Source: Escherichia coli (GTDB lineage: Bacteria > Pseudomonadota > Gammaproteobacteria > Enterobacterales > Enterobacteriaceae). From it: a stretch of DNA of 64,000 nucleotides. The notes below the pieces were generated by a model, which did not search any database, was not told the origin of the DNA, and saw only the letters and a list, made by a program, of their open reading frames with translations. Of this stretch, positions 38 through 681 are shown piece after piece (the stretch's first letter is position 1; every line of letters starts with the position of its first letter). Position numbers and translations under genes: made by a program. The DNA lies in the NCBI RefSeq assembly GCF_003334785.1, contig NZ_QOWV01000017.1. The stretch is one strand, 5' to 3'.

Positions 38-439
38 TCACAGATAAAACACTCTCCAGGAAACCCGGGGCGGTTCAGTCCCTTTTTGATTTTCAAGTAT
101 GTGAAAAACAAACTTAACCGGGTGATCAGGGTAATCCATCCAGTCATAAAATCCAGGGAAATCATTAAACTGCACATTTATGGTGAGTGCGTTATCGTCT
201 GACCACTCACAGTCTCGTACGGCAGCCATGAGATGAATGAGTTTGTCGTCATCGACTAAATCATCACGACAATCATAAGGATAATCATAATATTGTTTAA
301 TCAAAACCTTGAATATATCGACACAGGAAACCAGGGAGCTTTTGATATCCTCTGGTAACTGATTGTTTTTAACCGTATTAAGTATGCTTTGTTGCGTATA
401 TGGCATCAAATTATTGTGCGGAGCTTTTAATGATATCAT
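38..439 (-). CDS. hypothetical acidic protein (133 aa), unrecognised; sits where yahL would be expected next to yahK
   Basis: Complete ORF in track with stop inside window; no motif recognised; Asp/Glu/Tyr-rich; identity to yahL not established. Confidence 0.4.
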   Translation of the reverse strand: MISLKAPHNNLMPYTQQSILNTVKNNQLPEDIKSSLVSCVDIFKVLIKQYYDYPYDCRDDLVDDDKLIHLMAAVRDCEWSDDNALTINVQFNDFPGFYDWMDYPDHPVKFVFHILENQKGTEPPRVSWRVFYL

Positions 440-606
440 CGCGATCTCTCTTAAATAAAAATAAACGTCGCAGATAATAAAGCTCTGATTAAACCAGGCA
501 CTATCAGAAATCGCTCATAACTAACGTGTGAAGTATTGTGTACTGGAGGGCGTTAATTTAACAATTTAAATTTACGTTATAGGTTTTACTGCTACTTTGA
601 TATTAT

Positions 607-644
607 TTCGCTCTCCTTAACTAAAAAGTTAAGTGGAGAGCGAA
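607..644. terminator. imperfect 16-bp hairpin (2-nt bulge, AAAA loop) downstream of yahK
   Basis: Inverted repeat ttcgctctccttaact / agttaag(tg)gagagcgaa read directly; no clean U-tract, so terminator role is tentative. Confidence 0.3.
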
Positions 645-681
645 GTTAATATGTTAAACCACAGGGTATTTATTAATTTTT

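What the first reader, a model, noticed from the sequence alone, without database searches (positions are those of the whole stretch)
38..681. Unrecognised 133-aa acidic protein at the window edge
This complete ORF is rich in Asp, Glu, Tyr and Trp (for example YYDYPYDCRDDLVDDDKL and GFYDWMDYPDHP) with no hydrophobic segment or signature I recognise. It is separated from yahK by a 242-bp gap containing an imperfect 16-bp hairpin. It may be a strain-variable gene at the position where yahL would be expected.
Basis: seen in the sequence. Interest (0 to 1): 0.3.

Follow-up and report, generated by a model that had tools for sequence, protein, structure and literature searches.

The report
yahL gene cut by insertion sequence
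The "unrecognised 133-aa protein" is the first 45% of the known E. coli gene yahL, cut off by an IS629-type insertion sequence whose last 77 bases form the start of the window; it is an ordinary pseudogene.

Summary
The ORF exists as described: window 38-439, minus strand, 133 aa, with a 242-bp gap to yahK and an imperfect hairpin at 607-644. It is not a new or strain-specific gene. Its first 362 nt (121 aa) are 100% identical to E. coli yahL (271 aa). At window position 77|78 the match to yahL stops and the terminal inverted repeat of an IS3-family element begins. That element is an IS629/IS1203 isoform: 77/77 identical to a 1,310-bp reference copy, and window 3-35 encodes the last 10 codons of its transposase. 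The last 12 residues of the ORF (EPPRVSWRVFYL) and its stop codon are read from this IS end. None of 5,426 complete E. coli genomes, and no exact match in the metagenome or species-representative genome collections, carries this junction. About 3,994 genomes have the yahK-yahL stretch at 80% coverage or more. Intact YahL is a real gene under purifying selection (dN/dS about 0.17-0.20). Interest is low.

The parts
1..77 (+). The last 77 bp (right end) of an IS3-family insertion sequence of the IS629/IS1203 type. The rest of the element lies beyond the window edge.
   Evidence: 77/77 identical to the end of a 1,310-bp IS on plasmid pTB211 (L002:2501-3810), which has TGAACCGCCCCGGG at both termini. 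That copy is 97.5% identical to a PGAP-named 'IS1203 family' element. Its transposase matches NF033516 (IS3 family) at 313.6 bits against a cut-off of 160.
3..35 (+). 3' end of the IS transposase orfB: the last 10 codons, ASIGNDDLAA, plus a TGA stop.
   Evidence: The translation equals the C-terminus of the 296-aa OrfB of the reference copy. The annotated transposase CDS ends at the corresponding position.
53..77 (-). Terminal inverted repeat of the IS. Read on the minus strand it is TGAACCGCCCCGGGTTTCCTGGAGA, and its outermost base is window 77.
   Evidence: The two ends of the reference copy match at 23 of their first 25 positions. This is the only copy of the repeat in the window.
78..439 (-). 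yahL' : the 5' 362 nt of yahL (codons 1-120 plus two bases of codon 121).
   Evidence: Identical over 362 nt from the ATG to yahL of L001 (WP_001301260.1, 'protein YahL'). Divergence begins exactly at the IS terminus.
38..439 (-). The reported 133-aa chimeric ORF: YahL residues 1-121, then EPPRVSWRVFYL and a stop codon, all read through the IS end.
440..681 (.). Native yahK-yahL intergenic region, 242 bp and 32% G+C.
   Evidence: 100% identical to many E. coli genomes. Composition.
607..644 (-). Stable imperfect 16-bp stem-loop, 38 nt downstream of the yahK stop codon, with no U-tract after it.
   Evidence: The terminator scan did not call it and it has no meaningful Rfam match.
682..1731 (-). 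yahK, NADPH-dependent aldehyde reductase, intact. Included as context.

Best explanation
The ORF is a yahL pseudogene made by transposition. An IS629/IS1203-type element of the IS3 family, 1,310 bp in reference copies, inserted into yahL after nucleotide 362 of the 816-nt gene. Its transposase gene points towards yahL, so the two are convergent. Translation from the native yahL start codon runs through 121 native residues. It then continues for 12 codons into the IS terminal repeat and reaches a TGA, which gives the 133-aa ORF. The C-terminal 150 residues of YahL (55%) are removed from the reading frame, so the product is most likely non-functional. Shown here: the identity to yahL, the exact breakpoint, and the identity and orientation of the IS end. 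Inferred: that the IS is complete, that the 3' part of yahL follows it beyond the window, and that function is lost. Intact YahL is a genuine cytoplasmic protein specific to Escherichia and Shigella, and its biochemical function is unknown. No library gives a lead on that function.
For: Megablast of window 1-700 shows query bases 1-623 (window 78-700) matching yahK-yahL at up to 100%. The last 77 bases match only ends of IS3-family elements. The alignment shows the switch at GGGAC|TGAACCGCCCC, and the script found 362 identical nt from the ATG. The full YahL is 271 aa. The window's 77 bases are identical to the terminus of a 1,310-bp IS with matching inverted repeats, which is 97.5% identical to an IS1203 copy. 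Window 3-35 encodes the transposase C-terminus, and the reference transposase passes the IS3-family model. Other strains carry independent IS insertions in yahL and are annotated as pseudogene pieces: IS1 in NT1N31 and IS1B in strain B1. A 201-aa YahL variant exists in S. sonnei, and a S. sonnei paper lists 'yahL, IS3, ISSfl10, yahN' (PMC12795559). yahL is a real gene: dN/dS is 0.17-0.20 against syntenic alleles of 79-87% aa identity, and the deleted C-terminal part is equally constrained at 0.18-0.20.
Against: Only 77 bp of the IS are in the window. A complete element, the target-site duplication and the 3' part of yahL cannot be seen. No other genome or contig with this junction was found to fill the gap. 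Loss of function is inferred from the size of the truncation and was not tested.
Confidence: 0.95

Rival explanations
1. One reading: a complete, independent 133-aa acidic protein gene that replaces yahL in this strain.
For: The ORF has an ATG and a stop codon, and it matches no family.
Against: Its first 121 residues are 100% identical to the first 121 of the 271-aa YahL. Its tail and stop codon are IS sequence. The exact 133-aa product is not on record among about 15 billion proteins.
Confidence: 0.01
2. The IS marks a larger IS-mediated rearrangement (deletion, inversion or translocation) and not a simple insertion. In that case the 3' part of yahL, and perhaps yahM, is missing or lies elsewhere.
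For: In S. sonnei this neighbourhood (yahL, IS3, ISSfl10, yahN) lies inside an inversion flanked by IS3-family elements, and yahM is not listed there. The far side of the IS in this genome is not visible.
Against: Nothing in the window argues for it. Window 78-25000 is collinear with K-12-type genomes, with only about 9 mismatches by my estimate from the bit scores. Simple insertions are the commoner outcome.
Confidence: 0.2
3. The junction is an assembly artefact: a repeat-induced misjoin at an IS copy.
For: IS copies are classic sites of misassembly, and no other public sequence has the junction.
Against: The break falls exactly at the canonical outermost base (TG...) of the IS terminal repeat, as expected for real transposition. 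A misjoin would occur inside the repeat and would not create a precise IS-end/target junction.
Confidence: 0.03
4. The truncated YahL(1-121)-plus-12 protein is expressed and keeps, or gains, an activity.
For: The native promoter region, start codon and 5' coding sequence are untouched. Codons 1-121 are under purifying selection in intact alleles, with dN/dS of 0.13-0.22.
Against: A low-confidence model (pLDDT 57) places residue 121 in the middle of a beta-sheet region, with strands at 108-113, 122-125 and 131-134. The lost C-terminal 150 residues are equally constrained. The allele is private to this genome.
Confidence: 0.04

Closest known systems
E. coli K-12 yahL (b0326; 'protein YahL', WP_001301260.1, 271 aa)
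   Same: It occupies the same locus downstream of yahK. Nucleotides 1-362 and residues 1-121 are 100% identical.
   Different: It lacks residues 122-271 in frame and carries 12 foreign residues from an IS end.
IS629 and its isoforms IS1203 and IS3411 (IS3 family, 1,310 bp)
   Same: The terminal 77 bp are identical to a 1,310-bp copy that is 97.5% identical to an IS1203-named element. The orfB C-terminus and the TG-terminated inverted repeat also match. PMC3271280 describes isoforms that differ by 4-5% and 3-4-bp target duplications.
   Different: Only one end is visible. Completeness, the isoform subtype and the target duplication are unknown.
Other IS-disrupted yahL alleles (IS1 in strain NT1N31, IS1B in strain B1, 201-aa variant in S. 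sonnei)
   Same: The same gene is inactivated by mobile elements, and PGAP annotates the pieces as pseudogenes.
   Different: They involve a different IS family or a different position: the IS1 insertion in NT1N31 is at about codon 65, and the S. sonnei variant ends at about residue 199.

Membership tests
YahL (E. coli/Shigella-specific protein) | Sequence identity to YahL | tested here: met
   362/362 nt and 121/121 aa are identical to WP_001301260.1.
YahL (E. coli/Shigella-specific protein) | Full-length 271-aa reading frame | tested here: not met
   The frame leaves yahL after codon 121 and stops 12 codons later inside the IS. This makes it a pseudogene fragment of the family.
YahL (E. coli/Shigella-specific protein) | Synteny: directly downstream of yahK on the same strand | tested here: met
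   Divergent alleles are also syntenic.
IS3 family / IS629 isoform | Terminal inverted repeat ending 5'-TG... | tested here: met
   Window 53-77 equals the terminal repeat of the reference copy, whose two ends match at 23 of 25 positions.
IS3 family / IS629 isoform | orfA/orfB transposase with a programmed -1 frameshift and a DDE domain | not testable with these tools
   Only the last 10 codons of orfB are in the window. The identical-ended reference copy has both ORFs and passes NF033516.
IS3 family / IS629 isoform | 3-4-bp target-site duplication flanking the element | not testable with these tools
   The other end lies outside the window, and no other record with this junction was found.
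Any curated protein family (Pfam, NCBIfam, PADLOC, PHROGs, PDB sequences) | A significant profile match for the ORF or for full-length YahL | tested here: not met
   The best Pfam match has i-Evalue 0.0028, which is not significant. NCBIfam gave 0 families, PADLOC 0, PHROGs nothing better than E = 0.07 and PDB sequences 0. hhalign against the neighbouring DUF2686 protein gave probability 0.1%.
Intrinsic (Rho-independent) terminator, for the hairpin at 607-644 | A G+C-rich stem-loop followed by a U-tract | tested here: not met
   The stem is stable at -23.2 kcal/mol. The tail on the minus strand is AAUAAUAUC, and the scan did not call it.

The most novel reading that the evidence does not exclude
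Intact YahL is a purifying-selected orphan protein restricted to Escherichia and Shigella. No sequence-profile library gives it a family, and a low-confidence model gives no structural relative. The most novel reading still open is that its N-terminal 121 residues form an autonomous module, and that the truncated product in this strain is expressed and active or dominant-negative, not dead.
Probability: 0.04. Interest if true: 0.3.

Novelty: already known. Interest (0 to 1): 0.06.

Why it matters
Its importance is small. The result removes a false "novel gene" call: the ORF should be annotated as a yahL pseudogene plus an IS end. There are two modest practical points. First, yahL has been proposed as an E. 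coli/Shigella-specific PCR/qPCR marker (PMC11057252). IS-disrupted alleles like this one would enlarge or abolish the 756-bp Sanger amplicon. The 112-bp qPCR target lies 3' of the insertion, by my placement of the forward primer in the alignment. It would survive only if the 3' part of yahL is still present. Second, this junction was found in none of 5,426 complete E. coli genomes, so it is a potential strain-specific marker.

Tried and rejected
- **Profile searches.** I searched the 133-aa ORF and full-length YahL against NCBIfam, Pfam, PADLOC, PHROGs and PDB sequences and found nothing significant.
- **Exhaustive HMMER search.** Against 1.84 billion representatives there were only YahL alleles and fragments, plus one 26%-identical 275-aa relative, P0027. 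The neighbourhood of P0027 gave no functional lead: GntR regulator, DUF2686, gp25-like protein, amidohydrolase and inverse-autotransporter adhesin.
- **YahL as a remote DUF2686 (YjfZ-like) paralogue.** Rejected by BLASTP (E = 5.2) and hhalign (probability 0.1%).
- **Structure.** The AlphaFold2 model from a 4-sequence alignment had pLDDT 57.4 and pTM 0.61. Foldseek against AFDB50 returned only YahL variants at E < 0.001, and all other matches had E > 0.9.
- **Looking beyond the window edge.** The exact-protein look-ups found nothing. Exact 33-nt junction scans of the metagenome and species-representative genome collections found 0 matches.
- **Shigella sonnei as the source.** Considered after and judged unlikely. 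Window 78-25000 is collinear with K-12-type genomes, including the bet genes that the paper's gene list omits, and the S. sonnei YahL variant found is 201 aa, not 133.
- **Literature.** A search for the IS repeat sequence gave 0 papers. Papers that mention yahL give no function.
- **Rfam.** Nothing meaningful was found in window 1-2200.

Full report
**Observation.** It has 20 Asp+Glu against 12 Lys+Arg, 8 Tyr and 3 Trp, and its pI is 4.73. yahK (349 aa) lies at 682..1731 on the same strand, so the gap is 242 bp. The hairpin is real. Arms 607-616 and 635-644 are fully complementary, and the stem extends inward across a 2-nt bulge to 16 pairs. It folds at -23.2 kcal/mol, z = -5.0.

**What the ORF is.**
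- Megablast of the reverse complement of window 1-700 against 5,426 complete E. coli genomes splits the query in two. Bases 1-623 (window 78-700) match the yahK-yahL region at up to 100%. The last 77 bases (window 1-77) match only ends of IS3-family elements on many plasmids and chromosomes.
- The intact neighbour gene in a 100%-identical genome is annotated 'protein YahL', 816 nt and 271 aa.
- The window is identical to it for exactly 362 nt from the ATG. The sequence then reads GGGAC|TGAACCGCCCCGGG... where the native sequence reads GGGAC|AGTTTGGG....
- The ORF is therefore YahL residues 1-121 fused to EPPRVSWRVFYL and a stop codon, both read from foreign DNA.

**What the foreign DNA is.**
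- The 77 bases are identical to one terminus of a 1,310-bp element on plasmid pTB211 (L002:2501-3810). That element carries TGAACCGCCCCGGG at both ends, and its first 25 positions at the two ends match at 23 of 25.
- The element encodes a 108-aa OrfA and a 296-aa OrfB, annotated with a programmed frameshift. OrfB scores 313.6 bits against NCBIfam NF033516 (IS3 family transposase, cut-off 160).
- It is 97.5% identical over its full length to a copy that PGAP names 'IS3-like element IS1203 family' on an O157:H7 plasmid. IS1203 and IS3411 are described as isoforms of IS629 that differ by a few percent, and IS629 makes 3-4-bp target duplications (PMC3271280).
- Window 3-35 on the plus strand translates to ASIGNDDLAA*, the C-terminus of that OrfB. 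The window therefore begins inside the right end of the IS, with the transposase gene convergent with yahL.
- There is no second copy of the repeat in the window.

**How common the allele is.**
- No complete E. coli genome covers more than 89% of the 700-base query, so none has this junction. About 3,994 genomes carry the yahK-yahL stretch at 80% coverage or more.
- The exact 133-aa product is not on record. A 33-nt junction pattern has no exact match in the metagenome or species-representative genome collections.
- Window 78-25000 is otherwise almost identical to K-12-type genomes. I estimate about 9 mismatches from the bit scores.
- The source is not K-12, because the thrW site at 49640-49715 lacks the CP4-6 prophage. 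That K-12 carries CP4-6 at thrW is from my own knowledge.
- yahL is hit by mobile elements elsewhere: IS1 in strain NT1N31 at about codon 65, and IS1B in strain B1. There is also a 201-aa YahL variant in S. sonnei, where a published gene list reads 'yahL, IS3, ISSfl10, yahN' (PMC12795559).

**What intact YahL is.**
- yahL is present in 4,076 of 5,426 complete genomes, nearly always at 95% DNA identity or more. In some genomes, including EcN and a UPEC strain, the match stops after the first 255 bases of the query, which are the yahK end and the intergenic region (H17-H20).
- It is AT-rich at 38.8% G+C, against 53.3% for yahK.
- It is a real coding gene. Against syntenic alleles of 79% and 87% aa identity, dN/dS is 0.17-0.20. 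The values are similar for codons 1-121 (0.13-0.22) and codons 122-271 (0.18-0.20). yahK gives 0.02-0.04.
- It has no detectable family, as set out under Tried and rejected. An exhaustive HMMER search found only YahL alleles and fragments, plus one 26%-identical relative.
- The structure model is of low confidence (pLDDT 57.4), and Foldseek found only YahL variants.
[quoted passage not shown] No paper I found gives it a function.

**Mechanism.**
- Shown: an IS629-type end abuts yahL nt 362 at the canonical outermost base of the IS repeat. This is the signature of transposition and not of a misassembly.
- Inferred: the IS is complete, the 3' part of yahL follows it with a 3-4-bp duplication, and the truncated protein is inactive. 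It loses 150 constrained residues, and the low-confidence model places the break inside a beta-sheet region.
- An IS-mediated deletion or inversion at this point cannot be excluded without sequence to the left of the window.

**The hairpin.** The hairpin at 607-644 is native E. coli sequence, lies 38 nt after the yahK stop codon and lacks a U-tract. The terminator scan did not call it and it has no meaningful Rfam match. It may stabilise or end the yahK transcript, but that was not tested.

**Verdict.** This is an ordinary IS-generated pseudogene of a known orphan gene. It belongs to an already known kind, and interest is low.

Noticed in passing
window 67-82 (+), tail to 92: A terminator-like hairpin, GGGGCGGTTCAGTCCC followed by TTTTTGATTT, spans the IS/yahL junction. 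Half comes from the IS end and half from yahL. It is probably fortuitous, but it would face transcripts reading out of the IS.
   Followed up: no
window 49640-49715 (-) and surroundings, 39001-64000: tRNA-Thr(CGT), thrW, sits between a LysR-type gene fragment next to paoD and proA, with no prophage. The order ecpC-E, ykgJ, yagU, paoABCD, thrW, proAB, phoE, crl, frsA, gpt, pepD runs straight through, so the CP4-6 prophage that K-12 carries at thrW (from my own knowledge) is absent. The source strain is therefore not K-12, despite near-identity in window 78-25000.
   Followed up: partly
window 40077-41720 (+): ecpD (fimbrial adhesin) appears to have a premature stop. The ORF from 40077 ends at 41174 (365 aa), and a second ORF covers 41349-41720. 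In a 100%-matching genome PGAP annotates the corresponding span as one ecpD pseudogene with an internal stop.
   Followed up: partly
window about 1818-1892, in the yahJ-yahK intergenic region: In homologous genomes PGAP annotates a 75-nt 'hypothetical protein, missing N-terminus' pseudogene fragment between yahJ and yahK. I did not examine the corresponding sequence in the window.
   Followed up: no
window 551-576: A second AT-rich palindrome, CGTTAATTTAA/TTAAATTTACG with 4 nt between the arms, lies in the yahK-yahL intergenic region upstream of yahL. It could be a regulator-binding site or chance in 32% G+C DNA.
   Followed up: no
window 57600-63500 (approx.), from L011 annotation: In the closest matching genome this stretch holds gene remnants typical of this E. 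coli region: prfH and rtcB fragments, then the yafNOP-dinB operon, then lafU and a truncated flhA-like gene (Flag-2 remnant).
   Followed up: no
L004 (GCA_009799345.1, WTUQ01000002.1) 6001-6828: This is the only distant YahL relative found (P0027, 275 aa, 26% identity, E = 3.5e-11). It lies near a DUF2686 protein, a gp25-like protein and a large inverse-autotransporter adhesin. YahL and DUF2686 showed no detectable relationship.
   Followed up: partly
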